Counted from the first letter of the stretch, positions 5,312 through 30,705 are shown. The stretch is DNA of 31,322 nucleotides from a bacterium (GCA_030615855.1 JAUWYL010000015.1:1-31322); one strand, 5' to 3'. Made by a program: numbers and translations. The notes: a model not told the origin generated them from the sequence alone.

Positions 5312-5325
5312 AGTTTCTCCGGTGC

Positions 5326-8431: not shown

Positions 8432-8477
8432 CTTATCTAATCTTCAAGGGTTAGGAGGGGATAGAGGAGGAATATTG

Positions 8478-8630
8478 ATGTATCGGAGTATGGGCGTATT
8501 GGGGTATCGGTGTATCGGAGTGTCGGTGTAATGGTGTAAGTGAATATTTTTCTTTTTTACTCCCACACTCCACTACTCCCCTACCCCGTTACTCCCTTAC
8601 CCATCCTCACCCGTCCTTACCCTTCTCCTC
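8478..8630. repeat. Strand-asymmetric intergenic repeat region: G/T-rich (TATCGGAGT/GGTGTAAGTG units), then A/T centre, then C/T-rich (ACTCC/TTACCC units)
   Basis: Between NfnA-like start and aminotransferase stop; the two halves are loosely reverse-complementary. Confidence 0.7.
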
Positions 8631-11044: not shown

Positions 11045-11056
11045 CTAATCTCCCTA

Positions 11057-11122
11057 ACACGGATTAGCACAGATTAGAAAAAACAGATTAGCACAGATTT
11101 AATCCGTGCCTATCCGTGTCTA
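11057..11122. repeat. CACGGAT/ATCCGTG-family inverted tandem array (abuts the DERA stop codon)
   Basis: 'ACACGGATTAGCACAGATTAG...CAGATTAGCACAGATT' then 'AATCCGTGCCTATCCGTGTCTAAT'. Confidence 0.75.
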
Positions 11123-12007
11123 ATAGCCGGCTCCAGCTGGGGTTCCCTTTATGATAGCCACGCTCGCTGAGGCCCCGATCCTGGTGGCTCCGGCCTTGAG
11201 CAAGGCTTGGACATCCTCAAAGGTTCTGACTCCTCCCGAGGCCTTTACCCCCATAATAGGACCAACTATGCGACGCATGAGGGCAACATCGGCTACCGTT
11301 GCCCCCCCTCCACTGAAACCGGTGGATGTTTTAACAAAGTCTGCTCCAGCTTCCTTTGCTATCTGACAGGCCTTAATCTTTTCCTCTTGAGTTAGTAAAG
11401 CAGTCTCCAGAATCACCTTAACAATCCTTCCATTGGCCGCATTGACTACCGCCTGAATATCCTTTTTCACCAGATCGTAATTCTTTGCTTTCAGGGCTCC
11501 GATGTTCATCACCATATCGATCTCATCCGCTCCATTGGCGATGGCATCCCTGGTCTCCATGGCCTTGGCCGTGGAGGTCGTGGCTCCTAAGGGAAAACCG
11601 ATTACCGTAGTGATCTTGACTGGGGTCCCTTTTAGTACCTTTGCTGCTAAGGGGACATAACTGGGATTGATGCAGACAGAGGCAAAGTTATACTTCTTTG
11701 CCTCCTCACATAACTGGGTGATCTTCTCTGGAGAGGCATCGGGCTTTAAATAGGTATGATCAATGGTATGGGCAATCTCTTCTTTTGGCGGCCTTGCTCC
11801 AATGGTAGCCCCTATCCTCTCTGCTCCAGCAGCAACTACTTTCTCCACCTCACTGGGACACTTAACAACGCATAATCCACAGGCAGTACATTCGCTATCC
11901 GTTGCCGGACAGATGGTCACTCCAGGAATAACTCCTGTCTCCTCTTCAGCAAGGCGCCGCATAACATTCCTGGTTATTCTATCTATTAGCTCATCGAACT
12001 CAGCCAT
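11120..12007 (-). CDS. deoC: Deoxyribose-phosphate aldolase (DERA) with ~75 aa N-terminal extension (encapsulation-peptide-like helix + 4Fe-4S-type Cys motif)
   Basis: 295 aa; catalytic-Lys region '[16 protein letters not shown]', DERA core from ~aa 80 ('IDHTYLKP'); N-term '[19 protein letters not shown]' amphipathic helix; '[12 protein letters not shown]' = CxxCxxCxxxCP; SD GGAGGAAG. Confidence 0.85.
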
Positions 12008-12035
12008 TCTTCCTCCACGTGATTTCCAAGCATAT

Positions 12036-12096
12036 CGTTTACCGTTAACCCGCTTCGCTGTTTACCGTTTACCGTAAACCGTTAACCGTAAACCTG
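12036..12096. repeat. ACCGT-family tandem heptamers (TTTACCG/TAAACCG/TTAACCG)
   Basis: 'CGTTTACCGTTAACCCGCTTCGCTGTTTACCGTTTACCGTAAACCGTTAACCGTAAACC' between BMV1 stop and DERA start. Confidence 0.75.
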
Positions 12097-12099
12097 CTT

Positions 12100-12369
12100 T
12101 CATTCCATGTCGATGCGGTCTATTACTCCTGCGATAAAAGTCCTCACGGGAATATCTGGATTGCCGAATGCCTGACGGGCAGAGTTTCCCTCATCGATGA
12201 CCAGGACCGTCTCCCCAAAGCCGGCATAACCCTGATCCACGGCCATCAGGGAATTCCCCTCAGGCTTTAGTTTTTTATTCAGAGGTTGAACAATTAAGAG
12301 CCTATTCCCTTCCAGGTGCTTATTCTTCCTGGTAGCTACCACTACCCCGGTTACTTTAGCTATTAACAT
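12100..12369 (-). CDS. BMC vertex (pentamer) protein, EutN/CcmL/PduN family
   Basis: 89 aa; 'MLIAKVTGVVVATRK...LLIVQP' typical PF03319 N-terminus; SD AAGGGAG. Confidence 0.85.
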   Translation of the reverse strand: MLIAKVTGVVVATRKNKHLEGNRLLIVQPLNKKLKPEGNSLMAVDQGYAGFGETVLVIDEGNSARQAFGNPDIPVRTFIAGVIDRIDME

Positions 12370-12381
12370 TCTTCACTCCCT

Positions 12382-12669
12382 TCATTTAGATCGCGGTTTG
12401 GTTGGAGTAACCAAGGACTTGTGAATCCATCCCTCTCTCTTATCAGGTAGTCTAACCTTATACCAATTCCTGCTTTCCTCTAAGACCTTTAGGCGGTCAC
12501 CCTGTTTAAGAGTAATAACTATCTTACTCTCTATTGTAGCCGCACTTCTTATGTTGGCCTGCCCTACTTTGATCCAGACCTTGGCCGGGATTTTCTTAGT
12601 AGTTACCGCAGCACAGCCAGCCAATAGGATAACAACTACTAAGCCCAGTATTAAAAGTCTCCGTCCCAT
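12382..12669 (-). CDS. Bacterial SH3-domain lipoprotein
   Basis: Start taken at ATG (12667-12669) with SD GGGGGTG; signal peptide + lipobox 'LLAGC'; SH3b-like 'AKVWIKVGQANIRS...GDRLKVLEESRNWYKV'; ORF-track start 12687 is TTG. Confidence 0.55.
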   Translation of the reverse strand: MGRRLLILGLVVVILLAGCAAVTTKKIPAKVWIKVGQANIRSAATIESKIVITLKQGDRLKVLEESRNWYKVRLPDKREGWIHKSLVTPTKPRSK

Positions 12670-12701
12670 TCTATCACCCCCTTTCAATCATTCTTCTAGG
12701 C

Positions 12702-12830
12702 TGTCACGAAACTCGTTCCAGCCTATGATTACACAGATTCTAAAAAGATTACGCAGATTTTACCGACGAGTATTTGATCTGTGTAATCTAAATTTTAATG
12801 GGTGTAATAAAGGACGACACTTTTGTGACG
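12702..12830. repeat. Nested inverted repeats: 12-bp perfect IR GATTACACAGAT(12727-12738)/ATCTGTGTAATC(12777-12788) with third direct copy GATTACGCAGAT; outer imperfect IR TGTCACGAAA/TTTTGTGACG
   Basis: Read directly; lies upstream of the SH3-lipoprotein gene and downstream of BMV2. Confidence 0.75.
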
Positions 12831-12836
12831 CCCTAA

Positions 12837-13115
12837 TCATTCTTCCTCATGGATATCTATGGAGTCCACGATGCCCACGATACCTGCATCAACCGGAGCA
12901 ACCTCAGGTAATAGAGGTAAGGAAGCTTCCCGGGCCTCAACGTAGAAGACATAGTCCCCGATCCCCGCCTGAACAGTATCTACAGCCACCTGGGGCTTGT
13001 CTATGGGCTTTTTATCCTCCCAAGTTAAGGGCTGAATGATTAAAAGTTTTGCCCCTTCCAATGTCTCATACTTCTGAGAGGCAACTACTGTTCCAATGAC
13101 TTTAGCAAGCTTCAT
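12837..13115 (-). CDS. BMC vertex (pentamer) protein, EutN/CcmL family (paralog 2)
   Basis: Start taken at internal ATG (13113-13115) preceded by SD GGAAGGAG, giving 'MKLAKVIGTVVASQK...'; the ORF-track N-terminal extension begins on GTG. Confidence 0.8.
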   Translation of the reverse strand: MKLAKVIGTVVASQKYETLEGAKLLIIQPLTWEDKKPIDKPQVAVDTVQAGIGDYVFYVEAREASLPLLPEVAPVDAGIVGIVDSIDIHEEE

Positions 13116-13164
13116 AGGCTCCTTCCAGTCGCGCTTCAAGCCATACACTTAGGAAGCGGTGAAT

Positions 13165-13235
13165 CGGAGATCCTCTTTCTCCGCATCCTTATATCCCTCT
13201 ATTACCGTTTCTCCCTTTCTCCGTCTCTCCGTTTC
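13165..13235. repeat. Hairpin CGGAGA-tcctctt-TCTCCG plus tandem CCGT(T/C)TCTC units
   Basis: Read directly, between RpiB stop and BMV2 start. Confidence 0.6.
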
Positions 13236-13255
13236 AACATTCCTACAGCCTGTGG

Positions 13256-13789
13256 CTATTTCAAGTATTTTTTTTCTATTCCCATTATCTTATCTACTCT
13301 TCGGGCATGACGACCACCAGCGAACTTAGTCTCCAGCCATACCTTAACCATCTCCTTTGCTAAAGCAACTCCAATGGTCTGGCCCCCGAGACATAGAATA
13401 TTGGCATCATCATGCTCACTGGCCATCTTTGCAGTAAAGGTGTCATAGGCCAAAGCCGCCCTTATTCCGGGAACCTTATTACAGGCGATGCAGGAACCCA
13501 TTCCCGCACCATCGATCATTATTCCTTTAGAACATTCTCCCTTTACAACCTCTGAAGCAACGAGATGGGCATAGTCCGGATAGTCGCAGGACTCCGGGCT
13601 ATAGGGACCACAGTCCTTCACCTTATATCCCAATTCATTGAGATATTTTCTCAGTTCCTCCTTTAAGGGGAACCCTCCGTGATCGCTCCCCATGGCAATT
13701 TTCTTCTCATCCTTAGGAGGAGCTTCAGAGGATTTTAACTGAGCAGCAACTTCTTTTACGATCTTCTTTATGATATCCTCAGAAACCAT
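13256..13789 (-). CDS. rpiB: Ribose-5-phosphate isomerase B (RpiB/LacAB family) with N-terminal encapsulation-peptide-like extension
   Basis: 177 aa; 'IAMGSDHGGFPLKEEL', 'GMGSCIACNKVPGIRAA'; ~30 aa N-terminal extension 'MVSEDIIKKIVKEVAAQL' (amphipathic). Confidence 0.85.
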   Translation of the reverse strand: MVSEDIIKKIVKEVAAQLKSSEAPPKDEKKIAMGSDHGGFPLKEELRKYLNELGYKVKDCGPYSPESCDYPDYAHLVASEVVKGECSKGIMIDGAGMGSCIACNKVPGIRAALAYDTFTAKMASEHDDANILCLGGQTIGVALAKEMVKVWLETKFAGGRHARRVDKIMGIEKKYLK

Positions 13790-13794
13790 TCTTC

Positions 13795-14028
13795 TTACTC
13801 TTTTATAATTTTGATTCTGAATTCCAGGGCCCTATCCCGGGCAAAAGGGGTGATGATGGCATCCCTGGGAACCCTTAATTCCTTGCATCCCTGCTTTGCC
13901 GCCTTAAGCATCACCTCTTCATTAACGAGCATCCTCTTCGTCCCACGGGGAGAAGTTACCTTCCCCTTTCCAGCCAACTCCTTCTGGACCTCTTCAGTAA
14001 CGATTTGAATCAACTTCTCTTTATCCAT
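13795..14028 (-). CDS. Small hypothetical protein with N-terminal encapsulation-peptide-like helix (BMC-associated, no recognisable catalytic domain)
   Basis: ~77 aa from ATG 14026-14028 (SD GGAG 8 nt upstream; ORF-track GTG start at 14037); 'MDKEKLIQIVTEEVQKEL' amphipathic helix then Gly/Lys linker and ~45 aa C-terminal module '...KELRVPRDAIITPFARDRALEFRIKII'. Confidence 0.5.
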   Translation of the reverse strand: MDKEKLIQIVTEEVQKELAGKGKVTSPRGTKRMLVNEEVMLKAAKQGCKELRVPRDAIITPFARDRALEFRIKIIKE

Positions 14029-14050
14029 TTCGCTCACTCCGTTCGCTCAA

Positions 14051-14151
14051 TACGCTGATTACCGCTGATATACTGCACTGATTGCCGCTGATTATCTGCG
14101 GTCATCTGCGTCTTTTTTCCATATCTCTCCTCGCCATCTGCGTCTATCTGC
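14051..14151. repeat. Tandem GCTGAT(T/A) x4 followed by ATCTGCG x4 around a T-rich centre
   Basis: Read directly, between PduT stop and the small EP-protein start. Confidence 0.7.
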
Positions 14152-14153
14152 GT

Positions 14154-14705
14154 TTATAAGAGGGCTTTACGTAGTGCCTCATGGGGCTTGGGGATGACGG
14201 TTCGATTGACTAATAGTCCTTCCTCTTCTATCTCTCTGCAACCAGCATCTATGGCAGCCTTGACCGCATCTACTTCTCCTGTCAAGGTAACGAAGCCCTT
14301 TCCGGCCAATCCCTTTGCTAAACGAATTTCGATGAGTTCTATCTTGGCCGCCTTTACTGCGGCATCTGCAGCCAGGATAATGGCTGATACAGAGAAGGTC
14401 TCTATTACACCAATTGCTTTTAGCTCCTTAATAACGCTCGTTCCCATTATGGCCGGAAAGACATCGGAGTGGACATTGGGAATGACGAAGCTATCCATCA
14501 CTGTTTCTTTACCCACTTCCTTTCCTTTATCGATTGAGGACCGGACACTGGCCACATCTCCCATTACCAAGACGATATATTTACCGGGGCAGATGGAGAA
14601 GGATTCGATGAGGTCCACTGCCGCTACCTTCATCATGGCATCACAGACCTCAAACCCCCGGGCAACACTATTCAATTCCACCATACCGATGGCATTTTTA
14701 ACCAT
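14154..14705 (-). CDS. pduT: PduT-like tandem-domain BMC shell protein (BMC-T, putative Fe-S pore)
   Basis: 183 aa; two PF00936 domains; strong resemblance to PduT as I recall it ('AIGMVELNSVARG...DAMMK', 'SICPGKY', 'AIGVIETFSVSA...AADAAVKAA', 'GLLVNRTVIPKPHEAL'); conserved pore Cys in 'CPGK'. Confidence 0.85.
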   Translation of the reverse strand: MVKNAIGMVELNSVARGFEVCDAMMKVAAVDLIESFSICPGKYIVLVMGDVASVRSSIDKGKEVGKETVMDSFVIPNVHSDVFPAIMGTSVIKELKAIGVIETFSVSAIILAADAAVKAAKIELIEIRLAKGLAGKGFVTLTGEVDAVKAAIDAGCREIEEEGLLVNRTVIPKPHEALRKALL

Positions 14706-14728
14706 TTCATCCTCGTTTCACTCGGATA

Positions 14729-14816
14729 GTTTACAGTTTATCCGCTCGGCCTTTGGCCTCGCTGTTTACTGTTAACCGTCTTTTACCGTAAACCGTACAC
14801 CGTTAACCGTAAACCC
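14729..14816. repeat. ACCGT-family array containing dispersed block TTTACCGTAAACCGTACACCGTTAACCGTAAACC
   Basis: Upstream of PduT start; 23-27 nt identical to copies at ~25787-25815 and ~26901-26925. Confidence 0.8.
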
Positions 14817-14840
14817 TATCTTGCTGGTTACTGCTCACTG

Positions 14841-16163
14841 TTATGCTTCGATAGTAATAGAGTCTCCGATATCGGTTATCTTTCCCTCTATTGAGGCATG
14901 AATCCTTGCTCCTAAGGCTCCTCTGGGAATATCGGCAATCAAATCTCCCACTTTTACTTTCTCATTCAACTTTACGGTCGGGATCGATTTTGCTCCCACA
15001 TGCTGAGAGAGAGAAATCCTGACAAGGTTCGTCCGATATTCTCTCTTCTCCAGAGGAGCATCAAGATTATATTCCTCTATTCCGATCCTTGAGATGATCC
15101 TCTCTGTAGGAACTTTGCGATACTCTATCATGGAATGGGCTTCCTCCGGAGCCTCCTTATGGGGATTCTTAACCTTGGCCTCTGTCAGTTCCTTTTTAAT
15201 CTCCTGATTCACCCTGAGTGGTGATAGTCCAAAAGGACAAGCATATAGATTACATAAACCGCATTCTGAACAGAGGAAAGCAGCGGTGATGTCATTCAAT
15301 TCCTTTCTCATTTCATACCCCACATGCCTCATTATCTTATGGGGTTTTAAGGAATGGCCGATTAAGTACCGGGGACAGAGTTCAGTGCAGTCGGTGCACT
15401 GCATACAGAGCATGGTCTTCCTGAGGATTTTTCTCATCTCCAGGGTCTTGTTCATAATGACCTGATGGTCTTTGGGCAGGACAATCAATCCCGTGGTGGT
15501 CTTCATTACTGGGGAATCCAAATCTTCAATCAGTTTCCCCATCATAGGTCCGCCATCCAAGACAGAAAAATCATTTATCTTTGGTTCAGCTAATCTTATT
15601 ACCTCTCCCACACTCATCCCCACGGGAACCTTCACTGACTTCGGTCCCTTCACCGCCCCGGATATTGTGAGATAGCGATGGGTGACCGGCCTTCTTTCTA
15701 TAGTATCTGCAACATTGATGAGGGTTCCCACATTATCCACCACCACTCCCACTTGTAGGGGAATTCCTCCCTCAGGGACGATCCTCTTCAATACCTCATA
15801 GACCAGTATCTGCTCATCACCCGCAGGATAGAAGTCACCAAGGATAAATAGTTCGATGTGGGATGGAGGATGTGGGATGTGGGATGTTAAAGCAGCGATG
15901 GCCTCTTTATATTTTTCTTTTAAAGCAATAAATCCCTTCTTGGCTCCCGTGGCCTCCATTACTAGCTTTAAACCCTTGATCACTTTGTTCGCTTGGGTAG
16001 CCATTAATTGCTGATCGATGCGCAAGAGAGGCTCACACTCCGCACCATTGGCGATGACATACTCTACCTTGGTCTCTAACTTCACATGGGTGGGGAAGCC
16101 CGCTCCCCCTGCTCCCACCACCCCAGCATCCCTTACTTTCTCAATAATCTCTTTCTTATTCAT
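14841..16163 (-). CDS. pduS: PduS/RnfC-like Fe-S flavoprotein (BMC-associated oxidoreductase)
   Basis: 440 aa; N-terminus 'VRDAGVVGAGGAGFPTHVKLE' as in PduS/RnfC; two ferredoxin motifs 'CMQCTDCTELCP' and 'CSECGLCNLYACP'; in-frame heptamer repeat (~15855-15886) encoding 'HIPHPPSHI'; my manual base count and the ORF track disagree by 1 nt at this start codon. Confidence 0.8.
   Translation of the reverse strand: MNKKEIIEKVRDAGVVGAGGAGFPTHVKLETKVEYVIANGAECEPLLRIDQQLMATQANKVIKGLKLVMEATGAKKGFIALKEKYKEAIAALTSHIPHPPSHIELFILGDFYPAGDEQILVYEVLKRIVPEGGIPLQVGVVVDNVGTLINVADTIERRPVTHRYLTISGAVKGPKSVKVPVGMSVGEVIRLAEPKINDFSVLDGGPMMGKLIEDLDSPVMKTTTGLIVLPKDHQVIMNKTLEMRKILRKTMLCMQCTDCTELCPRYLIGHSLKPHKIMRHVGYEMRKELNDITAAFLCSECGLCNLYACPFGLSPLRVNQEIKKELTEAKVKNPHKEAPEEAHSMIEYRKVPTERIISRIGIEEYNLDAPLEKREYRTNLVRISLSQHVGAKSIPTVKLNEKVKVGDLIADIPRGALGARIHASIEGKITDIGDSITIEA
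15855..15886. repeat. In-CDS tandem heptamer (GATGTGG)x4.5
   Basis: Encodes 'HIPHPPSHI' inside the PduS-like protein, in frame. Confidence 0.8.
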
Positions 16164-16224
16164 TCCGTCATTCCGTCATTCCGTCATTCCGTCAGTAAGT
16201 TAGACGGATAGACGGATTAGACGT
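16162..16224. repeat. (CATTCCGT)x4 tandem octamer followed by (GACGGATA)x2.5 near-reverse-complement units; includes the PduS start codon
   Basis: Read directly; on the mRNA strand gives ACGGAATG x4 immediately 5' of and including the ATG. Confidence 0.8.
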
Positions 16225-16249
16225 TTCCTTCAAAACTTAAAGTTTTTTA

Positions 16250-17680
16250 TTAGGCAATTCTAAAGTAATCCACCAATACGCATCTTAAGGGTCTAGTGAA
16301 GGTGCTGGCTTTGGTCAATCCTTCTCCAGTGGGGGTGGCGATGCTCATGGTGGCATATCCCTCTCCCTCGTACCCCAACCCGGCATAGGAAGGGGCATTC
16401 TTAACGAAGATGGAAACTTGAGCGGTCTTGGCCATCTTGGTCAGATTGGCAACATTTAAGGAATGCATGATGGCGGTATGCTTATTGGCCTGTTCAACTT
16501 CTACAGCAAAATTAATTGCCTCATCAACATCTTTTACCCTGACAAAAGGGATGACCGGCATGAGCTGCTCTGTCCAGACGAAAGCGTGGTTTCGGTCCAC
16601 TTCACAGAATAAGAGTCTGGTACTCTCTGGTACTTTTACTCCAATCTTGGAAGCGATTAAAGTGGCATCCCTACCAATATACTCCCTACTCACTTTGGGC
16701 TCTTTCCCTGGACCACCTGGTTCCAGTATGGCGGCCTTGGTTAACTTTTCAAACTCATCCTTCTTTAACTCATAGGTCCGGGGATCCTTGCGCAATAGTT
16801 CCAATAATCTATCAGCAATAGCTTCCACGGCGATGATCTCCTTCTCTGCGGTACACAAGACGCCATTGTCAAAACTGGCTCCCTTTATGATGGAGTCAGA
16901 GGCATGCTCTAAGTCTAAAGTCTCATCTATTACTACTGGAGGATTCCCTGGACCAGCAGCAATCACCTTCTTTCCGCAGGCCATGGCGGCTCTCACCACC
17001 CCTGGCCCACCAGTGACTAGGATGAGCTTTATCTTGGGATGCTTGAATAGTGTCTGGGCCTCTTCAATGGAGGGCTTGGCAGCAGTGGTCATCAGATTTG
17101 CTGGCCCACCTGCTTTTATAATCGCTTCATTAAGAATCTGAATGGATTTCAGGGATACCTTCTTGGCTGCCGGATGGGGGGCGAAGACCACACTATTCCC
17201 GGCAGCGATGATGGAGATGGCATTATTTATTATGGTAGAGGAAGGATTGGTAGAGGGAGTCACAGCACCTATTACTCCAAAGGGAGCCATCTCCACTAAG
17301 GTTAAACCATGGTCCCCAGTATAGGCTATGGGGTGTAGATCCTCTACTCCAGGGGTCTTCTGGGCAGATAATAAGTTCTTCTGGACCTTATCCTCCCACC
17401 TTCCCATCTTGGTCTCTTCCCAGGCCAATTTTGCTAAACTCTCTGCCTCCCGGATTGAGGCCTCCCTCATAGCCTCGATATATTTGCTCCTCTTCTCCAG
17501 ACTCTCGCGAAAGAGCTCCCTTTGGGCAATCCGTGCCGCCTCAATGGCTTCCTCCACATTAGGAAAGACCCCCAGGTCCCCAGCACCTGCCTTTACTTCA
17601 GGAGGTCTGGCCTCTTCTTTGGTCATCCTCTCTACTATTTCCTTAACAACTTCTCTTATCTTCTCTGGACTGATCTCCAT
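16250..17680 (-). CDS. CoA-acylating aldehyde dehydrogenase (EutE/PduP family) with N-terminal encapsulation peptide
   Basis: Catalytic Cys box 'FDNGVLCTAEKEII'; start taken at ATG (17678-17680; SD GAGG 6 nt upstream) giving 'MEISPEKIREVVKEIVERM'; ORF-track start 17707 is GTG inside the upstream repeat array. Confidence 0.85.
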   Translation of the reverse strand: MEISPEKIREVVKEIVERMTKEEARPPEVKAGAGDLGVFPNVEEAIEAARIAQRELFRESLEKRSKYIEAMREASIREAESLAKLAWEETKMGRWEDKVQKNLLSAQKTPGVEDLHPIAYTGDHGLTLVEMAPFGVIGAVTPSTNPSSTIINNAISIIAAGNSVVFAPHPAAKKVSLKSIQILNEAIIKAGGPANLMTTAAKPSIEEAQTLFKHPKIKLILVTGGPGVVRAAMACGKKVIAAGPGNPPVVIDETLDLEHASDSIIKGASFDNGVLCTAEKEIIAVEAIADRLLELLRKDPRTYELKKDEFEKLTKAAILEPGGPGKEPKVSREYIGRDATLIASKIGVKVPESTRLLFCEVDRNHAFVWTEQLMPVIPFVRVKDVDEAINFAVEVEQANKHTAIMHSLNVANLTKMAKTAQVSIFVKNAPSYAGLGYEGEGYATMSIATPTGEGLTKASTFTRPLRCVLVDYFRIA

Positions 17681-17703
17681 CTTCATCCTCACTTCGCTCC
17701 GGT

Positions 17704-17789
17704 GCACGGATAATCACGGATTTCATACGGATGAGCACAGATTAAATCCGTGCTAATCTGTATTATTATCAGTGCTAATCCGTGTCTAA
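17704..17789. repeat. Phased CAC(G/A)GAT x4 then ATC(C/T)GTG x4 array (same family as 21443-21523)
   Basis: Unit starts approximately 17704/17714/17725/17735 and 17747/17757/17770/17780 (~10 bp phasing); spans BMV3 stop to AldDH start. Confidence 0.8.
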
Positions 17790-18076
17790 GACTTTCTGAA
17801 TAAAACCTTACCTTCTACCTCAATGGTATCCACAATGGCCATGATCACCGCATCTGTGGGGGTATCCTTAGTCCTTACTGTCTGACGGGCAGAGGAGCCC
17901 TTGGCGATCAGGACCACCTCTCCGATTCCAGCTCCCACAGCATCGATGGCTACCAGAGGAGATCCCTCCTCTTTTCCTTCCATGCTTATGGGCTGAATCG
18001 CCAATAACTTACAACCCTCTATCTTCTCATCCTTCCTGGTAGCCACAACGGTACCAATCACCTTGGCAAATATCAT
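17786..18076 (-). CDS. BMC vertex (pentamer) protein, EutN/CcmL family (paralog 3)
   Basis: 96 aa; 'MIFAKVIGTVVATRK...LLAIQP'; strong SD AAGGAGGAG. Confidence 0.85.
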   Translation of the reverse strand: MIFAKVIGTVVATRKDEKIEGCKLLAIQPISMEGKEEGSPLVAIDAVGAGIGEVVLIAKGSSARQTVRTKDTPTDAVIMAIVDTIEVEGKVLFRKS

Positions 18077-18100
18077 CTGTCTCCTCCTTATAGATTAGAA

Positions 18101-18166
18101 GTTTACAGTAGCCAGTTAACAGTAACCAGTCTTCTACTGTAAACTGTTCGCTGGTTACTGGTTACT
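18101..18166. repeat. GGTTACTG-family element: GTTTACAGT...CAGTAACCAG then ACTGTAAAC...CTGGTTACTG (unit / reverse-complement unit, order preserved)
   Basis: Exact 9- and 10-nt reverse-complement pairs at ~30 nt offset; between AckA stop and BMV3 start. Confidence 0.75.
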
Positions 18167-19370
18167 TCTTTGTTTTGCTGATGACATCGTAGGTATCTCG
18201 AGCAATGACCAGTTCCTCGTTGGTTGGTATGCAATAGACTTTGACCTTTGAATTGGGAGCGCTTATCTCCCCCTCCTTCTTTATTGTCTTCTCGTTCCTC
18301 TCCTTATCGATAACCACCCCTAAAAATTCCAACCCAGCACAACTCAAGGCTCTTATTCTGGGAGCATTTTCGCCAATCCCGGCAGTGAAGACGATAGCAT
18401 CCACTCCTCCCATGACTCCGGCATAGGAAGTGATATACTTCCTAATGTGATAGGTGAAGATCTCTATGGCTAATCTTGCCCGGTCATTCCCCTTCTTCTC
18501 CTCTTCCAGGATATCATACATATCACTGCTCACTCCTGATAATCCCTGAAGACCAGAGTGGAAGTTAAGCATGGTATTTACCTCATTTATGGATAATCCT
18601 TCATTAGTCATGATATATAGAACGATGGCGGGATCGATGTCCCCACATCTGGTCCCCATGACTAAACCCTCTAGGGGGGTGAAGCCCATTGAGGTATCGA
18701 TGGATACCCCTCCCTTAATGGCAGCAATACTGACTCCATTCCCCAAGTGGCAGGTGATGACCTTTAAATCTGTCAAGGGCCTATCCATGAGATGGGCCAC
18801 TCTCTGGGAGACATAGAGGTGAGAAGTTCCATGGAAGCCGTATCTCCTTATCCCATATTTACGATACTGAGTGTAAGGCAATCCATAGATATAGGCATGG
18901 CGAGGCATGGTCTGATGGAAGGCAGTATCGAAGACCGCTACCTGGGGGATCCCGGGAAGGAGTTCCTCACAGGCCATGATTCCCCTCAGGTTATGAGGGT
19001 TATGTAGAGGAGCAAGTTCTATGCAATCCGCTATACCTTCTTTTACCTCCTCAGTAACCAGGACTGAAGTAGCAAATTTCTCTCCCCCATGGACTACTCG
19101 GTGACCGACAGCAACAATCTCTTTCTTATCCTTAATGACTCCCGTTTTAGGATGGAGAAGAGCATCTAGGGCTAACTTTATCGCCTCTCTATGATCCAAG
19201 ATCTCTGCTGCCGTCTTTACCGGCTTCTTCTTCCCAACCTGATAGGTTGAGAGCGCTCCACTCATTCCGATTCTCTCCACAATCCCCTTGGCTAAAACAG
19301 ACTCCTTTTCAATCTCAATCAGTTCATACTTCACAGAAGAACTTCCACAATTTAGTACTAATATTTTCAC
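18162..19370 (-). CDS. ackA: Acetate kinase
   Basis: 402 aa; 'KILVLNCGSSSVKYEL' N-terminus and ASKHA-fold motifs; GTG start with SD GGGGGT. Confidence 0.9.
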   Translation of the reverse strand: MKILVLNCGSSSVKYELIEIEKESVLAKGIVERIGMSGALSTYQVGKKKPVKTAAEILDHREAIKLALDALLHPKTGVIKDKKEIVAVGHRVVHGGEKFATSVLVTEEVKEGIADCIELAPLHNPHNLRGIMACEELLPGIPQVAVFDTAFHQTMPRHAYIYGLPYTQYRKYGIRRYGFHGTSHLYVSQRVAHLMDRPLTDLKVITCHLGNGVSIAAIKGGVSIDTSMGFTPLEGLVMGTRCGDIDPAIVLYIMTNEGLSINEVNTMLNFHSGLQGLSGVSSDMYDILEEEKKGNDRARLAIEIFTYHIRKYITSYAGVMGGVDAIVFTAGIGENAPRIRALSCAGLEFLGVVIDKERNEKTIKKEGEISAPNSKVKVYCIPTNEELVIARDTYDVISKTKK

Positions 19371-19403
19371 TTTTACCCCCTTTAAGGTTGGTATTAGTTA
19401 GCA

Positions 19404-19465
19404 GTGTACAGTTTACAGCAAAAAACTGGTTACTGTTCGCTGGTTACTGATTACTCTTTATCTTA
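19404..19465. repeat. GGTTACTG-family element (shares CTGTTCGCTGGTTACTG(G/A)TTAC with 18136-18166)
   Basis: Between PduL stop and AckA start. Confidence 0.75.
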
Positions 19466-19470
19466 ACTTT

Positions 19471-20136
19471 TTATGATATTTCTACTAGGTCTCCTTGAGA
19501 TAGGCCAGCGGCATTGGCCTCATCAATATCTATATGGAAATCTAACCTATGGGTTGGTCCCGACCTTATCATGACGTTATCGAATATTAATGCTCTCTTT
19601 CCCGGTACCTTTACCTTTACTGTATCCCCGTCCTTCACCCCAAAGCCCCTTGCTTCATCTGGAGACAAGTGGATATGGCGCTGGGCAATAATCGCCCCCG
19701 CTCTTAAGTTAATCTCTCCCTTGGGGCCGATAATCTTTATCCCGCTCGAGCCCTTTATATCTCCCGAAATCCTCACTGGAGGTTTGATTCCCAAGATGTA
19801 GCTATCTGTTCTTGAGACCTCGACCTGGGTCTCTTTTCTTACTGGGGCCAGGATGCGCACCTTTTCCATCCTTCCCTTTGGTCCTACTAAGGCGACTACT
19901 TCATTTGCTGCAAACTGCCCTGGCTGAGAGAGGTCTCTCAGTTTTGTCAGTTTCGCTCCCTTTCCGAATAGGGTTTCTAAATCCTTTGTAGTAAGATGTA
20001 CATGTCTATTAGAGAGACCGACTGGGATCTTTCCAGGAGGTGCTTTGGGCGCGGCACTCAGCTTGCTTAAGACCTCCTCCACTATGGAACGAACTAACTT
20101 CTCATCGTACACTTTCTTGTCCTCGATAGATGTCAA
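19471..20136 (-). CDS. pduL: Phosphate acyltransferase PduL (PTAC) with N-terminal encapsulation-peptide-like helix
   Basis: Duplicated RHxH motifs ('SNRHVHLT', 'AQRHIHLS'), 'SQPGQFAA', 'HIDIDEANAAGL'; ORF-track start is TTG; a GTG at ~20109-20111 with SD GAGGA would give 'M-YDEKLVRSIVEEVLSKL' (EP helix), so the true start is uncertain. Confidence 0.8.
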   Translation of the reverse strand: MTSIEDKKVYDEKLVRSIVEEVLSKLSAAPKAPPGKIPVGLSNRHVHLTTKDLETLFGKGAKLTKLRDLSQPGQFAANEVVALVGPKGRMEKVRILAPVRKETQVEVSRTDSYILGIKPPVRISGDIKGSSGIKIIGPKGEINLRAGAIIAQRHIHLSPDEARGFGVKDGDTVKVKVPGKRALIFDNVMIRSGPTHRLDFHIDIDEANAAGLSQGDLVEIS

Positions 20137-20153
20137 TAAAATACAGTATAATA

Positions 20154-20213
20154 GGTGGATTGGTTGGATTAGTTGGATTTAAAATCCACCTAATTTCCTA
20201 ATCCAACTAATTT
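20154..20213. repeat. GGATTAGTTGG-family element: GGTGGAT...AGTTGGATT then ATCCACC...AATCCAACT (order-preserved reverse-complement pairs)
   Basis: Between TPI stop and PduL start; related copy at ~30706-30740. Confidence 0.75.
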
Positions 20214-20222
20214 ACTCGGCGG

Positions 20223-20978
20223 CTATTTTTTATACTTAATGATCTGGGCAAAGGATTTAGCATCGAGGCTCGCTCCCCCCACTAAGGCGCCATCGATGTC
20301 CTCCTCCCTCATTAAATCAGAGATATTCTCTGGCTTGACGCTTCCTCCATATTGGATTCTAACCTTAGCGGCAGTAACCTCATCATAGAGTTCGTTTAAA
20401 AGTCCTCTAATGAAGGAGTGAACCTCTTGTGCCTGATCTGGGGTGGCGGTCTTTCCGGTTCCAATGGCCCATACCGGCTCATAGGCAATGACTATCTTCA
20501 GTATCTCTTCCCGGGATAGGCCTTCCAGTCCCCGGGTGATATGTTCTCTCACCACCCCTTCGGTCACTCCCCTCTCCCTCTCCTCTAACCTTTCTCCCAC
20601 ACACATTATAGGTGTAAGGCTAAACTTTAGAGCCGTCTTTACCTTCCTATTCACTGATTGATTCGTTTCAGCGAAGAACTGCCTCCTCTCCGAGTGACCA
20701 ATGATGACGTATCTGCAGCCCACACCAGTGAGCATCCCTGGTGAAACCTCTCCCGTATAGGCCCCCTTCTCCTCCCAGTAGACATCCTGAGCACTGAGAA
20801 AAATGTTCGTCCCTCGAATGGCCTTGCCCACCGCAAAGAGAGAAGTAAAAGGAGGACAGACTACAATGTCAAGATCGTTGACCTTGGCGACCTCGGACTT
20901 TAATTTAGTCACTAAGTCCAGGGACTGGTCGATGGTCTTATTCATCTTCCAGTTCCCGGCAATTATCGGCCGGCGCAT
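20223..20978 (-). CDS. tpiA: Triosephosphate isomerase
   Basis: Start taken at ATG 20976-20978 (SD AGAGGAGGAG) giving 'MRRPIIAGNWKMNKT'; 'AYEPVWAIGTGKTAT', 'GGASL'; the ORF-track N-terminal extension runs into the repeat array. Confidence 0.9.
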   Translation of the reverse strand: MRRPIIAGNWKMNKTIDQSLDLVTKLKSEVAKVNDLDIVVCPPFTSLFAVGKAIRGTNIFLSAQDVYWEEKGAYTGEVSPGMLTGVGCRYVIIGHSERRQFFAETNQSVNRKVKTALKFSLTPIMCVGERLEERERGVTEGVVREHITRGLEGLSREEILKIVIAYEPVWAIGTGKTATPDQAQEVHSFIRGLLNELYDEVTAAKVRIQYGGSVKPENISDLMREEDIDGALVGGASLDAKSFAQIIKYKK

Positions 20979-20994
20979 AAACTCCTCCTCTAAA

Positions 20995-21131
20995 CACAGA
21001 TTCACACAGATAAGAGACAGATTCACACAGATCACAGATATTTAATAGCATCCGAATTCCAAAAAATTCTAATATCGAATTTTATAATCTGTGATCTGTG
21101 GCCATCTGTAAACAATCTGTGATGATCTGTG
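20995..21131. repeat. Large symmetric array: CACAGAT x5 (~10 bp phased), then 46-bp A/T-rich centre with GAATT repeats, then ATCTGTG x5
   Basis: rc(CACAGAT)=ATCTGTG exactly; spacer lengths are nearly mirrored (3,4,3,0 vs 0,3,4,2); between BMC-H stop and TPI start. Confidence 0.85.
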
Positions 21132-21422
21132 CTATTTACCAGGAGTGATGGGCATTACCCCTTCCAGATCCGGATGAGGTCGGGGAATGACGTGGACGCT
21201 TATCAGTTCTCCTACTTTCTGGGCAGCACTGGCTCCCGCATCGCAGGCTGCCTTGCAGGCGGCAACGTCACCCCTCACCAAGGTAGTGACATAGCCGGCT
21301 CCGATCTTCTCCCAGCCCACGAGATTCACCTTGGCGGCCTTGATCATGGCATCTGTAGCCTCGATAAGGGTTACCAGTCCCTTGGTCTCAATCATCCCCA
21401 GCGCTTCTCTTGCTTCTACCAT
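21132..21422 (-). CDS. BMC-H hexameric shell protein (PduA/EutM type, PF00936)
   Basis: Start taken at ATG 21420-21422 (SD AGAGGAGGTG) giving '[30 protein letters not shown]...'; the ORF-track extension to 21476 runs into the upstream repeat array. Confidence 0.85.
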
Positions 21423-21442
21423 TTTCTTCACCTCCTCTAATA

Positions 21443-21523
21443 CACGGATAATCACAGATTCTTTACGGATGGTCACGGATCAAATCCGTGCTAATCCGTG
21501 TTGTTATCCGTGCTAATCCGTGT
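21443..21523. repeat. Phased (C/T)AC(G/A)GAT x4 then ATCCGTG x4 array upstream of the BMC-H gene
   Basis: Unit starts approximately 21443/21453/21463/21473 and 21484/21494/21506/21516; between DGC stop and BMC-H start. Confidence 0.85.
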
Positions 21524-25677: not shown

Positions 25678-25778
25678 CAACCCTCGCTTCGTTCGGGAGT
25701 TTATAGTTGAGCGGCGCGTTTTACTTGCCCCGCTGGTGAATAACTGTTATTCAATTTACCCGTTCCCCCGATTTATCG

Positions 25779-25815
25779 GGGTCGCTGTTTACCGTAAACC
25801 GTACACCGTTAACCT
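25779..25815. repeat. Dispersed ACCGT-family block GTTTACCGTAAACCGTACACCGTTAACC preceded by hairpin CCCCGA-ttta-TCGGGG
   Basis: 27-nt identity with ~14783-14809. Confidence 0.8.
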
Positions 25816-25821
25816 TGCCCT

Positions 25822-26799: not shown

Positions 26800-26818
26800 T
26801 TTTCTCACTCCGTTCGAG

Positions 26819-30675: not shown

Positions 30676-30705
30676 TCTACACCTCGCTTACGCTTGGAAT
30701 AATTA

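What the first reader, a model, noticed from the sequence alone, without database searches (positions are those of the whole stretch)
11120..21523. Sugar-phosphate/aldehyde-type bacterial microcompartment locus with an atypical enzyme set
A contiguous ~10.4 kb co-directional block encodes the following. (1) One BMC-H protein, one PduT-like BMC-T protein and three BMC-P vertex paralogs. (2) An aldehyde-processing core: CoA-acylating AldDH, PduL phosphotransacylase, acetate kinase and a PduS-like Fe-S flavoprotein. (3) Sugar-phosphate enzymes not found in the classic Pdu/Eut loci: deoxyribose-phosphate aldolase, RpiB and triosephosphate isomerase. Five proteins (DERA, RpiB, AldDH, PduL and a ~77 aa ORF) carry N-terminal amphipathic helices of the encapsulation-peptide type. 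This suggests an organelle that cleaves or condenses deoxyribose-5-P (acetaldehyde + glyceraldehyde-3-P) and converts the acetaldehyde to acetyl-CoA, acetyl-phosphate, acetate and ATP. From memory, this composition resembles the 'SPU'/Atribacterota-type BMC loci. Having tpiA and ackA inside the operon, three vertex paralogs and a PduT-like Fe-S shell protein gives an unusually complete self-contained module.
Basis: partly seen in the sequence, partly recalled or inferred. Interest (0 to 1): 0.8.

Follow-up and report, generated by a model that had tools for sequence, protein, structure and literature searches.

The report
Sugar-phosphate (SPU) bacterial microcompartment operon
This is a real gene cluster for a protein-shelled bacterial organelle that most likely breaks down deoxyribose-5-phosphate, but it belongs to the already catalogued and partly characterised SPU family, so it is a new member and not a new kind of system.

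Summary
Window 11120-21476 (minus strand) encodes one BMC-H, one PduT-type BMC-T, three BMC-P, DERA, RpiB, CoA-acylating AldDH, PduL, PduS-like flavoprotein, TIM, AckA and a 77-80 aa ORF. The locus is a sugar-phosphate-utilising (SPU) microcompartment, named in 2014, catalogued in 2021 (>280 loci, seven subtypes) and studied biochemically in 2024. The closest genomes are unclassified MAGs including UBP18_UBA7526 (91-95% AldDH identity), not Atribacterota. The next relatives are SPU1-type loci of Elusimicrobiota with nearly the same gene order. The BMC-P triplet, TIM, PduL, the PduS/PduT pair (now MNdh/BMC-T^SE, for NAD+ recycling), the encapsulation peptides and the Cys66-to-Asp RpiB are all standard SPU traits. 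Specific to this clade are ackA inside the locus, a single BMC-H gene, an encapsulation peptide on RpiB and the SH3 insertion. Two features I found no description of in the papers read: a four-cysteine motif in the DERA N-terminal extension (here a canonical CxxCxxCxxxCP), and the small C-terminal domain of the 80-aa ORF, which recurs fused to other BMC cargo. The spacers carry hypervariable palindromes built of periodic short words. Verdict: new member of a known kind, modest interest.

The parts
21132..21422 (-). BMC-H shell hexamer protein (96 aa from ATG 21422; the mechanical ORF extends to GTG 21476). It is the only BMC-H gene in the window.
   Evidence: PF00936 at 97 bits. Standard interface motifs KAAK (28) and PRPH (80), pore GAG. 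70-78% identical to the first BMC-H of SPU1-type loci.
20223..20978 (-). Triosephosphate isomerase with no N-terminal extension; probably acts outside the shell.
   Evidence: PF00121 at 331 bits, matching from residue 23 of the 270-aa ORF. The ORF's extra 19 residues are translated spacer repeat. No encapsulation peptide here or in most orthologues.
19471..20136 (-). PduL-type phosphotransacylase with an N-terminal encapsulation peptide (probable start GTG 20112).
   Evidence: PF06130 at 260 bits. Two RHxH motifs. Amphipathic helix KLVRSIVEEVLSKL is conserved in all orthologues. Start codon and Shine-Dalgarno site.
18162..19370 (-). Acetate kinase with no extension; the cytosolic ATP-yielding step. 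Found inside the locus only in this clade.
   Evidence: PF00871 at 533 bits. AckA lies inside the BMC locus only in L003-L005 among the 58 related loci.
17786..18076 (-). BMC-P vertex pentamer paralogue 1, next to AldDH as in SPU1 loci.
   Evidence: PF03319 at 112 bits. 45% identical to P2 and to P3. Synteny.
16250..17686 (-). CoA-acylating aldehyde dehydrogenase (PduP/EutE class) with an N-terminal encapsulation peptide.
   Evidence: NF011927 at 661 bits. Catalytic-Cys motif NGVLCTAE. Encapsulation peptide IREVVKEIVERMTK is conserved in all orthologues.
14841..16163 (-). PduS-like flavoprotein (MNdh, metabolosome NADH dehydrogenase).
   Evidence: Complex1_51K + SLBB + Fer4_17 + RnfC_N. GAGGAGFP motif and two CxxCxxCxxx(x)CP motifs. 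Function taken from PMC11275729.
14154..14705 (-). PduT-type BMC-T (BMC-T^SE) with the pore cysteine, adjacent to PduS.
   Evidence: Two PF00936 domains. TIGR02526. CPGK at residue 39, aligned to PduT Cys38.
13795..14037 (-). orf80 (77 aa from the ATG): encapsulation-peptide helix, disordered linker, then a small conserved alpha/beta domain equivalent to the C-terminal third of TIGR02536 (eut_hyp).
   Evidence: TIGR02536 positions 133-206, E 3.9e-8. Homologues in SPU1 loci. AlphaFold2 gives helix 3-19 and a domain at 33-76 with pLDDT about 85. Profile search found 67 hits, including fusions to PduL, flavoprotein-like proteins and TIM.
13256..13789 (-). RpiB/LacAB-family protein of the SPU Asp type with an N-terminal encapsulation peptide; probably a DERA partner or scaffold, not an R5P isomerase.
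   Evidence: PF02502 at 196 bits. Cys66 replaced by Asp, His99 kept. The encapsulation peptide is present only in the window's clade. DERA-RPI complex and negligible activity reported in PMC11585597.
12837..13115 (-). BMC-P vertex paralogue 2 (probable start ATG 13115).
   Evidence: PF03319 at 90 bits, matching from residue 12 of the ORF.
12382..12669 (-). SH3_3-domain lipoprotein inserted between the two normally adjacent BMC-P genes; predicted to be exported, so probably not an organelle component.
   Evidence: PF08239 at 61 bits. Signal peptide with lipobox LAGC. Conserved at this position in L002, L004 and L005 and absent from other SPU loci.
12100..12369 (-). BMC-P vertex paralogue 3.
   Evidence: PF03319 at 88 bits.
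11120..12007 (-). Deoxyribose-5-phosphate aldolase, the signature enzyme. It has an 80-residue N-terminal extension: encapsulation-peptide helix (2-21), a Cys motif C33-x7-C41-x2-C44-x2-C47-x3-C51-P (DNA 11852-11911), then a helix packing onto the barrel.
   Evidence: TIGR00126 at 313 bits. D102/K167/K201 equivalents conserved. Extension conserved in orthologues. AlphaFold2 model. Sub-threshold Fer4 hits, E about 0.004.
11090..11110 (-). Hairpin followed by a T-run directly after the DERA stop codon; the likely 3' end of the transcription unit.
   Evidence: It is the only terminator-like site on the minus strand between 10900 and 23500. It is itself part of a CACGGAT-type spacer palindrome.

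Best explanation
The block is one operon for a catabolic SPU-type metabolosome. Deoxyribose-5-phosphate enters a shell built from one BMC-H, a PduT-type BMC-T and three BMC-P paralogues. Encapsulated DERA splits it into glyceraldehyde-3-P and acetaldehyde. Encapsulated AldDH oxidises the acetaldehyde to acetyl-CoA, reducing NAD+. Encapsulated PduL converts acetyl-CoA to acetyl-phosphate and recycles CoA inside. No alcohol dehydrogenase is encoded, so NAD+ is regenerated by the PduS-like flavoprotein (MNdh), which passes electrons through its two 4Fe-4S clusters to the 4Fe-4S cluster at the BMC-T pore and out to an unidentified cytosolic acceptor. Acetyl-P and glyceraldehyde-3-P leave the shell. 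AckA makes ATP plus acetate, and TIM equilibrates the triose phosphate; neither has a targeting peptide, so both probably act in the cytosol. The Asp-type RpiB and orf80 carry targeting helices and most likely serve as packing or adaptor proteins. What is shown here: gene content, motifs, catalytic residues, extensions and synteny. What is shown elsewhere for relatives: DERA activity and the DERA-RPI complex (SPU6), and MNdh/BMC-T^SE electron transfer. What is inferred: the substrate, the direction of flux, the location of each protein, and the roles of RpiB and orf80.
For: Domain content and scores. Catalytic and cofactor motifs are intact: DERA D/K/K, AldDH Cys, PduL 2x RHxH, PduS FMN/NADH motif plus two Fe-S motifs, BMC-T CPGK. 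N-terminal amphipathic extensions occur on DERA, AldDH, PduL, RpiB and orf80 but not on TIM, AckA or PduS. The gene order matches dozens of SPU1-type loci. No alcohol dehydrogenase is present in the 31-kb window. There is one terminator-like site after DERA, and each gene has a strong Shine-Dalgarno site. Published support comes from the SPU definition and pathway (PMC4207490; PMC8217296), DERA activity, the DERA-RPI complex and encapsulation-peptide mapping (PMC11585597), and MNdh/BMC-T^SE NAD+ recycling in loci lacking an alcohol dehydrogenase (PMC11275729). PduL plus AckA, both in the ATP-yielding direction, together with an NADH-oxidising module fit catabolism.
Against: No experiment exists for this lineage or for any SPU1-type locus. 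The window encodes no route to deoxyribose-5-P: there is no phosphopentomutase or thymidine phosphorylase, and the nearby phosphorylase (26925-27788) is MTAP-like. All the reactions are reversible in principle. SPU1 loci have two BMC-H paralogues, whereas only one BMC-H gene is present here, and the rest of the genome could not be searched. The electron acceptor outside the shell is unknown. The role of RpiB is unresolved even in the published system.
Confidence: 0.75

Rival explanations
1. The same organelle runs in the reductive, condensing direction, as proposed for Atribacteria. AldDH reduces acetyl-CoA to acetaldehyde as an NADH sink, and DERA condenses acetaldehyde with glyceraldehyde-3-P into deoxyribose-5-P as a non-toxic carbon store.
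For: The model of Nobu et al. 2016 is summarised in PMC6281690. DERA, AldDH, PduL and AckA are all reversible enzymes, and TIM could supply glyceraldehyde-3-P. No deoxyribose-5-P-supplying genes lie in the window.
Against: The locus encodes MNdh/BMC-T^SE, which oxidises NADH inside the shell; that works against a lumen meant to consume NADH. PduL and AckA in the operon fit ATP harvest from acetyl-CoA. The measured SPU6 DERA activity was cleavage (PMC11585597). This lineage is not Atribacterota.
Confidence: 0.12
2. The organelle processes another sugar phosphate or aldehyde, for example a rare pentose or deoxy-sugar phosphate isomerised by the RpiB-family protein and then cleaved by a promiscuous DERA. 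Deoxyribose-5-P would then not be the native substrate.
For: Every SPU locus keeps an RpiB-family protein that has no place in a plain DERA pathway (PMC11585597). Five related loci carry an Asp-type plus Cys-type RpiB pair resembling the LacA/LacB heterodimeric isomerase. RpiB enzymes are often promiscuous (PMC4207490).
Against: The window's clade has only the Asp-type copy. DERA scores as an equivalog of deoC with all catalytic residues. The SPU6 DERA has a Km of about 0.1 for deoxyribose-5-P (units not given in the passage).
Confidence: 0.1
3. The locus is a decaying or incomplete remnant that no longer builds a closed shell. It has a single BMC-H gene, a foreign SH3 lipoprotein gene inserted in it, and a truncated eut_hyp gene.
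For: It lacks the second BMC-H and the second BMC-T of SPU1 loci. The SH3 gene splits the BMC-P pair. orf80 matches only the last third of TIGR02536.
Against: Every gene is intact with its functional motifs. The whole arrangement, orf80 and SH3 included, is conserved at 75-98% protein identity in four independent MAGs. orf80-like small ORFs are regular members of SPU1 loci, not fragments. The catalogue describes other BMC types whose loci have a single BMC-H.
Confidence: 0.03

Closest known systems
SPU1 subtype of sugar-phosphate-utilising BMC loci (Sutter et al. 2021, 62 loci, Elusimicrobia; Dwyer et al. 2024)
   Same: The enzyme set is DERA + RpiB + AldDH + PduL + TIM, with a BMC-P triplet (one next to AldDH, two next to RpiB/DERA), a PduT-type BMC-T with pore Cys paired with PduS, and no BMC-T^dp. 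The gene order TIM-PduL-(H)-P-AldDH-PduS-T-RpiB-P-P-DERA is nearly identical. AldDH is 53-64% identical.
   Different: The source is a UBP18-like lineage, not Elusimicrobia. There is one BMC-H (KAAK/PRPH) at the 5' end instead of two charge-complementary paralogues. No second, Cys-less BMC-T is present. ackA is inserted between PduL and BMC-P1. RpiB carries an encapsulation peptide. The orf80-type gene has moved from the 3' end to between BMC-T and RpiB. An SH3 lipoprotein gene lies between the paired BMC-P genes.
SPU4 subtype (Firmicutes)
   Same: DERA, AldDH, PduL, TIM, a BMC-P triplet, PduS-associated BMC-T in some loci, and a BMC-specific eut_hyp (TIGR02536) protein with a targeting helix.
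   Different: SPU4 has the full-length flavoprotein-like eut_hyp, whereas here only its C-terminal module exists as a stand-alone 77-aa protein. SPU4 often lacks RpiB and has two BMC-H.
Atribacteria SPU loci (Axen 2014; SPU2 in the 2021 catalogue)
   Same: DERA, RpiB and AldDH with shell genes. The 2014 Atribacteria examples also had PduL, PduS and, in one case, TIM.
   Different: The catalogue's SPU2 has a reduced enzyme set and a CcmP-like BMC-T^dp. The window has none, and its nearest relatives outside its own clade are mostly Elusimicrobiota SPU1-type loci, plus one Caldiserica MAG, not Atribacteria.
MNdh / BMC-T^SE cofactor-recycling module (PduS/PduT homologues; Sutter et al. 2024)
   Same: An adjacent PduS-like gene and a PduT-like gene with the CPGK pore motif, AldDH present and no alcohol dehydrogenase in the locus.
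   Different: Nothing tested here differs. The external electron acceptor is unknown here, as it is in the published work.
Pdu metabolosome of Salmonella (PduP, PduL, PduW, PduS, PduT)
   Same: The downstream logic is the same: aldehyde to acyl-CoA to acyl-phosphate, then a kinase outside the shell. AckA here plays the part of PduW.
   Different: The signature enzyme is DERA, not a B12-dependent diol dehydratase. There are no B12-related genes and no alcohol dehydrogenase.

Membership tests
Bacterial microcompartment locus | Genes for both shell domains, PF00936 (BMC-H/T) and PF03319 (BMC-P), clustered with enzymes | tested here: met
   PF00936 in two genes (one single-domain, one tandem) and PF03319 in three genes, all above the gathering scores.
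SPU BMC | DeoC-type aldolase (pfam01791) as signature enzyme, with catalytic residues and a BMC-specific N-terminal extension | tested here: met
   TIGR00126 at 313 bits. An 80-aa extension of helix plus beta-hairpin, as described in PMC11585597.
SPU BMC | CoA-acylating aldehyde dehydrogenase carrying an encapsulation peptide | tested here: met
   NF011927 at 661 bits. N-terminal amphipathic helix conserved in all orthologues.
SPU BMC | RpiB-family protein (pfam02502) with Asp in place of catalytic Cys66 | tested here: met
   PF02502 at 196 bits. Alignment gives Asp at Cys66 and His at His99. 40 of 50 related RpiB ORFs also have Asp.
SPU BMC | [quoted passage not shown] | tested here: met
   Three PF03319 genes that are 41-45% identical to one another. 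P2 and P3 are neighbours apart from the inserted SH3 gene. Assignment to the catalogue's colour clades was not possible without its HMMs.
SPU1 subtype | PTAC (pfam06130) and TIM (pfam00121) in the locus, and no BMC-T^dp | tested here: met
   The only tandem-BMC protein is 183 aa and aligns end to end with PduT.
SPU1 subtype | Two BMC-H paralogues with complementary interface motifs (KAAK/PRPH and KAA[ND]/PQPH), plus a second BMC-T^s lacking the pore Cys | tested here: not met
   There is one BMC-H gene, with KAAK/PRPH, and one BMC-T, with CPGK, in the 31-kb window. Satellite copies elsewhere in the genome could not be searched.
SPU1 subtype | Found exclusively in Elusimicrobia | tested here: not met
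   The closest genomes are unclassified MAGs including bacterium UBP18_UBA7526. The catalogue's own trees already label one unclassified bacterium (BM706) as SPU1.
SPU2 (Atribacteria-containing subtype) | Reduced enzyme set (AldDH, DERA, RpiB) with a CcmP-like BMC-T^dp | tested here: not met
   The locus has PduL, TIM, PduS and AckA, and no BMC-T^dp.
MNdh / BMC-T^SE module | PduS homologue (pfam01512, 10531, 13534, 13375) adjacent to a PduT homologue with the CPGK pore motif, in a locus that has AldDH | tested here: met
   Definition in PMC11275729. Fe-S cluster binding and electron transfer cannot be tested with these tools.
PDU / EUT metabolosomes | B12-dependent diol dehydratase or ethanolamine ammonia-lyase as signature enzyme | tested here: not met
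   No such Pfam family appears in any ORF of the window.

The most novel reading that the evidence does not exclude
The SPU signature enzyme is a metalloprotein in a way I found described in none of the papers read. Between the targeting helix and the aldolase barrel, nearly all BMC-type DERAs carry four conserved cysteines, and here they form a canonical ferredoxin motif (C-x7-CxxCxxCxxxCP). If this binds an Fe-S cluster, DERA would be redox-sensing or wired into the organelle's electron-export path. In parallel, the small C-terminal domain of orf80 would be a second, previously unrecognised cargo-recruitment module of microcompartments. It is found alone with a targeting helix, in tandem, and fused to TIM, PduL and flavoprotein-like BMC proteins.
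Probability: 0.25. Interest if true: 0.55.

Novelty: new member of a known kind. Interest (0 to 1): 0.3.

Why it matters
As a locus it adds a UBP18-like candidate lineage to the 26 phyla already known to carry SPU microcompartments. It also shows a compact version with one BMC-H gene and ackA in the locus, which could suit heterologous reconstruction because the whole path from deoxyribose-5-P to ATP, plus NAD+ recycling, sits in 10 kb. It does not change the picture of what SPU organelles are. The two residue-level observations are cheap to test and would refine the published SPU model: the Cys4 motif in the DERA extension, and the recurrent orf80-type domain. The published model currently treats the DERA extension only as a long encapsulation peptide and leaves RpiB and the accessory proteins unexplained.

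Tried and rejected
- **Rfam:** searching the whole window gave no hit, so no riboswitch or known RNA explains the spacers.
- **orf80:**
  - It has no Pfam family and no sequence match to a solved structure (best E 0.89).
  - It has no significant fold match (best Foldseek E 0.13).
  - The resemblance to the E3-binding motif is sub-threshold (E 0.003-0.008) and I do not rely on it.
- **orf80 as a decayed eut_hyp fragment:** rejected, because intact homologues of the same size are regular members of SPU1 loci.
- **DERA CxxCxxC motif tied to PduS/MNdh:**
  - Among loci fetched through the AldDH, the motif occurs in 7 of 9 PduS-containing loci and in 0 of about 21 without PduS.
  - That set is phylogenetically confounded.
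  - Independent lineages break the link: L180 and L182 have the motif and no PduS within 10 kb.
  - I therefore rejected it as a rule.
- **Spacer hairpins as a conserved expression-tuning part of the operon:** rejected, because sister genomes carry different element families, inverted copies, nested insertions or nothing at the same junctions.
- **Sense versus antisense folding energies of the spacers:** these show no consistent strand bias.
- **Metagenome scan with a 17-mer:** 120 or more contigs matched, but single hits are near the number I estimate by chance for a collection of that size. Only the clustered arrays are informative.
- **Provenance:** looking up the exact 77-aa protein failed. 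The DERA look-up found only a 3-kb Logan contig.
- **Structure models:** the tools give no coordinates, so the geometry of the four cysteines could not be measured.
- **Hydrophobic moment:** on its own it discriminates poorly, because an internal TIM helix scores 0.57. The encapsulation-peptide call therefore rests on the extension, the linker and conservation in orthologues.

Full report
**Observation**

All 33 long ORFs of the window lie on the minus strand, so co-directionality by itself says nothing. Between 11120 and 21476, Pfam and NCBIfam identify the following genes in transcription order:
- BMC-H (PF00936)
- triosephosphate isomerase
- PduL phosphotransacylase (PF06130)
- acetate kinase
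- BMC-P
- a PduP/EutE-class aldehyde dehydrogenase (NF011927, 661 bits)
- a PduS-like flavoprotein (Complex1_51K, SLBB, Fer4_17, RnfC_N)
- a tandem-domain BMC-T (TIGR02526 eut_PduT)
- an 80-aa ORF with no Pfam family
- RpiB (PF02502)
- BMC-P
- an SH3_3 lipoprotein
- BMC-P
- deoxyribose-phosphate aldolase (TIGR00126, 313 bits against a cut-off of 117)

The mechanical ORFs of TIM and BMC-H are too long because they read into repeat-rich spacers. The likely starts are the ATGs at 20978 and 21422, and PduL probably starts at GTG 20112 behind a GAGGA site.

**Functional residues**

They aligned cleanly and at the expected residue numbers.
- DERA keeps the equivalents of D102, K167 and K201.
- BMC-T keeps the PduT pore cysteine within a CPGK motif.
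- RpiB has Asp instead of the catalytic Cys66 but keeps His99.
- PduS has the GAGGAGFP nucleotide/FMN motif and two CxxCxxCxxx(x)CP motifs.
- PduL has both RHxH motifs, and AldDH has the catalytic-Cys motif.
- BMC-H has the standard KAAK and PRPH interface motifs.
- The three BMC-P proteins are 41-45% identical to each other, so they are real paralogues.

**Encapsulation peptides**

DERA, RpiB, orf80, AldDH and PduL each begin with a stretch that precedes the Pfam domain. The stretches share the pattern [DE]-x-[LI]-[IV]-x-x-[IV]-[VT]-x-x-V-x-x-x-[LM], read directly.
- Their maximum helical hydrophobic moments are 0.89, 0.61, 0.52, 0.65 and 0.55, against a window-wide 95th percentile of 0.53.
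- AlphaFold2 predicts helix 3-19 in orf80 and helix 2-21 in DERA, each followed by a low-confidence linker.
- The AldDH and PduL helices are conserved in every orthologue examined, across several phylum-level groups.
- The RpiB helix exists only in the window's own clade.
- TIM, AckA and PduS have no extension.

**Origin and relatives**

A scan of one genome per species with the AldDH returned 58 loci.
- Four unclassified MAGs are 91-95% identical: bacterium UBP18_UBA7526, CSMAG_2758, CSMAG_2684 and KR13_S3.mb.88. Where their contigs extend, they share the whole arrangement, including orf80, the SH3 gene and both flanks (GGDEF protein upstream, SHMT and aminotransferase downstream).
- NCBI taxonomy lists UBP18_UBA7526 only under unclassified candidate phyla.
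- The next relatives (53-64% AldDH identity) are dozens of Elusimicrobiota MAGs and one Caldiserica MAG. Their order is TIM-PduL-BMC-H-BMC-P-AldDH-(PduS)-BMC-T-RpiB-BMC-P-BMC-P-DERA-BMC-H.

**What is known**

This is the SPU (sugar-phosphate-utilising) BMC.
- Axen et al. 2014 named it from eight loci. The Atribacteria examples already contained DeoC, RpiB, AldDH, PduL, PduS and, in one case, TIM (PMC4207490).
- Sutter et al. 2021 found more than 280 loci in 26 phyla and defined seven subtypes. All have a BMC-P triplet with two adjacent members. SPU1 (62 loci, Elusimicrobia) has AldDH, PTAC and TIM, two BMC-H paralogues and a PduS-associated PduT-type BMC-T. SPU4 adds a eut_hyp (TIGR02536) protein with a targeting helix (PMC8217296 supplement).
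- Dwyer et al. 2024 showed that an SPU6 DERA is active on deoxyribose-5-P and forms a 1:1 complex with the RPI. They also showed that all SPU RPIs carry Asp for Cys66 with negligible R5P isomerase activity. All SPU DERAs have an N-terminal extension of a helix plus two strands, and RPI, AldDH and PTAC carry encapsulation peptides (PMC11585597).
- Sutter et al. 2024 re-assigned PduS/PduT homologues as MNdh/BMC-T^SE. This NADH dehydrogenase exports electrons through the CPGK-bound 4Fe-4S cluster of the shell trimer, and it is found in 361 loci that lack an alcohol dehydrogenase (PMC11275729).

**What is particular to this clade**

1. ackA lies inside the locus. Among the 58 loci it does so only in the window's clade. 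The catalogue lists pfam00871 for MIC4 and MUF3, and Axen listed it for the 'SPU-like' Latescibacteria loci, not for SPU. Functionally it parallels PduW of the Pdu system.
2. There is a single BMC-H gene, placed first. No second BMC-H follows DERA and there is no second BMC-T.
3. RpiB carries an encapsulation peptide.
4. The orf80-type gene sits between BMC-T and RpiB rather than at the 3' end.
5. A predicted exported SH3 lipoprotein (lipobox LAGC) is inserted between the paired BMC-P genes. It probably is not part of the organelle.

**Mechanism**

The best-supported reading is the published catabolic SPU scheme plus MNdh recycling.
1. DERA cleaves deoxyribose-5-P inside the shell.
2. AldDH makes acetyl-CoA and NADH.
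3. PduL makes acetyl-P and recycles CoA.
4. MNdh and BMC-T^SE re-oxidise NADH and export the electrons.
5. AckA and TIM, which lack targeting peptides, finish the pathway in the cytosol.

A hairpin with a T-run directly after DERA is the only terminator-like site on the coding strand between 10900 and 23500, which fits one transcription unit. The main rival is the reductive or condensing direction proposed for Atribacteria. An NADH-oxidising module and the PduL/AckA pair argue against it, but nothing here proves the direction. The window encodes no enzyme that would supply deoxyribose-5-P.

**DERA extension**

Residues 33-52 read C-P-x6-C-x2-C-x2-C-x3-C-P, a canonical ferredoxin 4Fe-4S motif. 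It gives only sub-threshold Fer4 hits because it is a single half-site.
- Among the 120 best DERA homologues in the large protein collection, 66 have CxxCxxC in the extension, in most cases listed with an upstream Cys 7-9 residues before it (C-x7-9-C-x2-C-x2-C).
- The Anaerolineae SPU6 type has C-x3-C-x4-C-x3-C.
- Many 460-490 aa proteins have an extra N-terminal region ahead of the Cys motif and DERA. One of them (P0047) carries a PF02441 flavoprotein annotation.
- Elusimicrobiota SPU1 DERAs have other Cys/His patterns (H-x-H...CPHC).
- Two sister MAGs have deleted the segment, so it is dispensable in at least one lineage.
- The motif is not tied to PduS.
- The main text of Dwyer et al. mentions cysteine only for RPI and for the mass-spectrometry methods.

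I regard a metal site, either Fe-S or Zn, as likely. Its nature and role remain open.

**orf80**

It matches positions 133-206 of TIGR02536 (E 3.9e-8).
- Small homologues follow the trailing BMC-H in SPU1 loci.
- A profile search of 1.84 billion representatives found 67 proteins. They include stand-alone proteins of 77-125 aa and tandem ~160-aa forms. In others the domain sits at the C-terminus: PF02441 flavoprotein-like proteins, one PduL-type PTAC and one citrate synthase.
- In L009 and L052 the same domain is fused in frame to the N-terminus of TIM.
- The AlphaFold2 model shows a targeting helix, a disordered linker and a small alpha/beta domain with pLDDT about 85. It has no significant structural neighbour.

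I infer a protein-protein adaptor role. This has not been shown.

**Spacers**

Almost every gene junction in the operon carries a 40-150 nt imperfect palindrome built from a short word repeated with a period of about 7-11 nt and then its reverse complement. So do several junctions elsewhere in the window (8432-8630, 25681-25821, 26809-26924, 30676-30863).
- The words include CACGGAT, CACAGAT, CAGTAACCAG, ACGGTTT/ACGGTAA, GACGGAAT and GGATTAG.
- These words are 8- to 130-fold enriched in intergenic DNA.
- The pattern CACGGATNNNCACRGAT occurs 11 times against 0 expected.
- Fold z-scores reach -4 to -7, and Rfam has no match.
- In the sister MAGs the same junctions carry other families, inverted copies, nested insertions or nothing.

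The elements behave like small mobile palindromic elements and are not a conserved part of the BMC system. Clustered CACGGAT palindromes also occur in many environmental contigs.

**Verdict**

This is a genuine, intact SPU microcompartment operon of SPU1-like architecture in a UBP18-like lineage: a new member of a known kind.

Noticed in passing
window spacers 11045-11119, 12008-12099, 12670-12836, 14038-14153, 14706-14840, 16164-16249, 17687-17785, 18077-18161, 19371-19470, 20137-20222, 20979-21131, 21423-21523; also 5312-5348, 8432-8630, 25681-25821, 26809-26924, 30676-30863: Intergenic palindromes of 40-200 nt, each built from a short word repeated with a period of about 7-11 nt followed by its reverse complement (CACGGAT, CACAGAT, CAGTAACCAG, ACGGTTT/ACGGTAA, GACGGAAT, GGATTAG, GGGTAAGG). 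The words are 8-130x enriched in intergenic DNA, fold z-scores reach -7, and Rfam has no hit. Between MAGs with about 90% identical proteins the same junction holds different families, inverted copies, nested insertions or nothing, so they look like mobile MITE/REP-like elements. Similar CACGGAT arrays occur in many environmental contigs.
   Followed up: partly
window 11852-11911 (DERA residues 33-52); P0001-P0120; L005, L008, L009, L044, L052: There is a four-cysteine motif in the N-terminal extension of BMC-type DERA; here it is C-x7-CxxCxxCxxxCP, a canonical ferredoxin motif. Of the 120 closest homologues, 66 have CxxCxxC, the SPU6 type has C-x3-C-x4-C-x3-C, and two sister MAGs have lost it. 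The main text of the 2024 SPU paper does not mention it. It is not strictly linked to PduS.
   Followed up: partly
window 13795-14037; L009 and L052 upstream of TIM; P0145-P0210: The roughly 45-aa C-terminal domain of orf80 (consensus L.VP..AI[IV][ST]P[LF]A.D.L...GI.I) recurs as stand-alone small proteins, as tandem copies, at the C-terminus of flavoprotein-like eut_hyp proteins, a PduL PTAC and a citrate synthase, and fused in frame to the N-terminus of TIM in two SPU loci. It has no Pfam family and no structural neighbour.
   Followed up: partly
L006 20561-21620, L007 14758-15780, L008 13426-14350, L044 13270-14200, L052 7513-8460: Five related SPU loci that also have PduS carry two adjacent RpiB-family genes, one with Asp and one with Cys at the catalytic Cys66 position. 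This resembles the LacA/LacB heterodimeric isomerase. L009 and L010 have an Asp/Gly pair. The window's clade and most Elusimicrobiota loci keep only the Asp type.
   Followed up: partly
window 12382-12669: An SH3_3-domain lipoprotein gene (signal peptide, lipobox LAGC) is inserted between the two BMC-P genes that are otherwise always adjacent in SPU loci. It is conserved at this place in L002, L004 and L005.
   Followed up: partly
P0012-P0111 (460-490 aa proteins); L008 and L044 DERA ORFs: Many DERA homologues are 460-490 aa, with an extra N-terminal region of about 200-280 residues ahead of the Cys motif and the aldolase. One (P0047) carries a PF02441 flavoprotein annotation. In L008 and L044 the stop-to-stop reading frame extends about 280 residues upstream of the aldolase domain; the true start was not established.
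   Followed up: no
L014-L058 and L052 DERA extensions: Elusimicrobiota and Caldiserica DERA extensions contain a conserved T-x-G-[ST]-A-G-K-[VT]-F motif (three copies in L052) that is absent from the window's DERA. Its meaning is unknown.
   Followed up: no
window 21524-23317; L012 ~6369, L044 ~6649: A sCache-HAMP-GAF-GGDEF diguanylate cyclase gene lies directly upstream of the operon, co-directional and conserved in the sister MAGs. GGDEF-domain genes also sit just upstream of two Elusimicrobiota/Endomicrobia SPU loci. This could be a regulatory link or a coincidence.
   Followed up: no
window 20979-21035 and 21423-21476: Mechanical ORF calling extends TIM (to 270 aa) and BMC-H (to 114 aa) into translated spacer repeats, for example VICVNLSLICVNLCL, which comes from CACAGAT repeats. 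Gene callers may report false N-terminal extensions here.
   Followed up: yes
window 6205-8431: An NfnAB/GltD-like pair lies 3 kb downstream of the operon: a Fer4_20 + Pyr_redox_2 protein and a DHODB-type Fe-S/NAD-binding protein. I have no evidence that it is linked to the electron output of the BMC.
   Followed up: no
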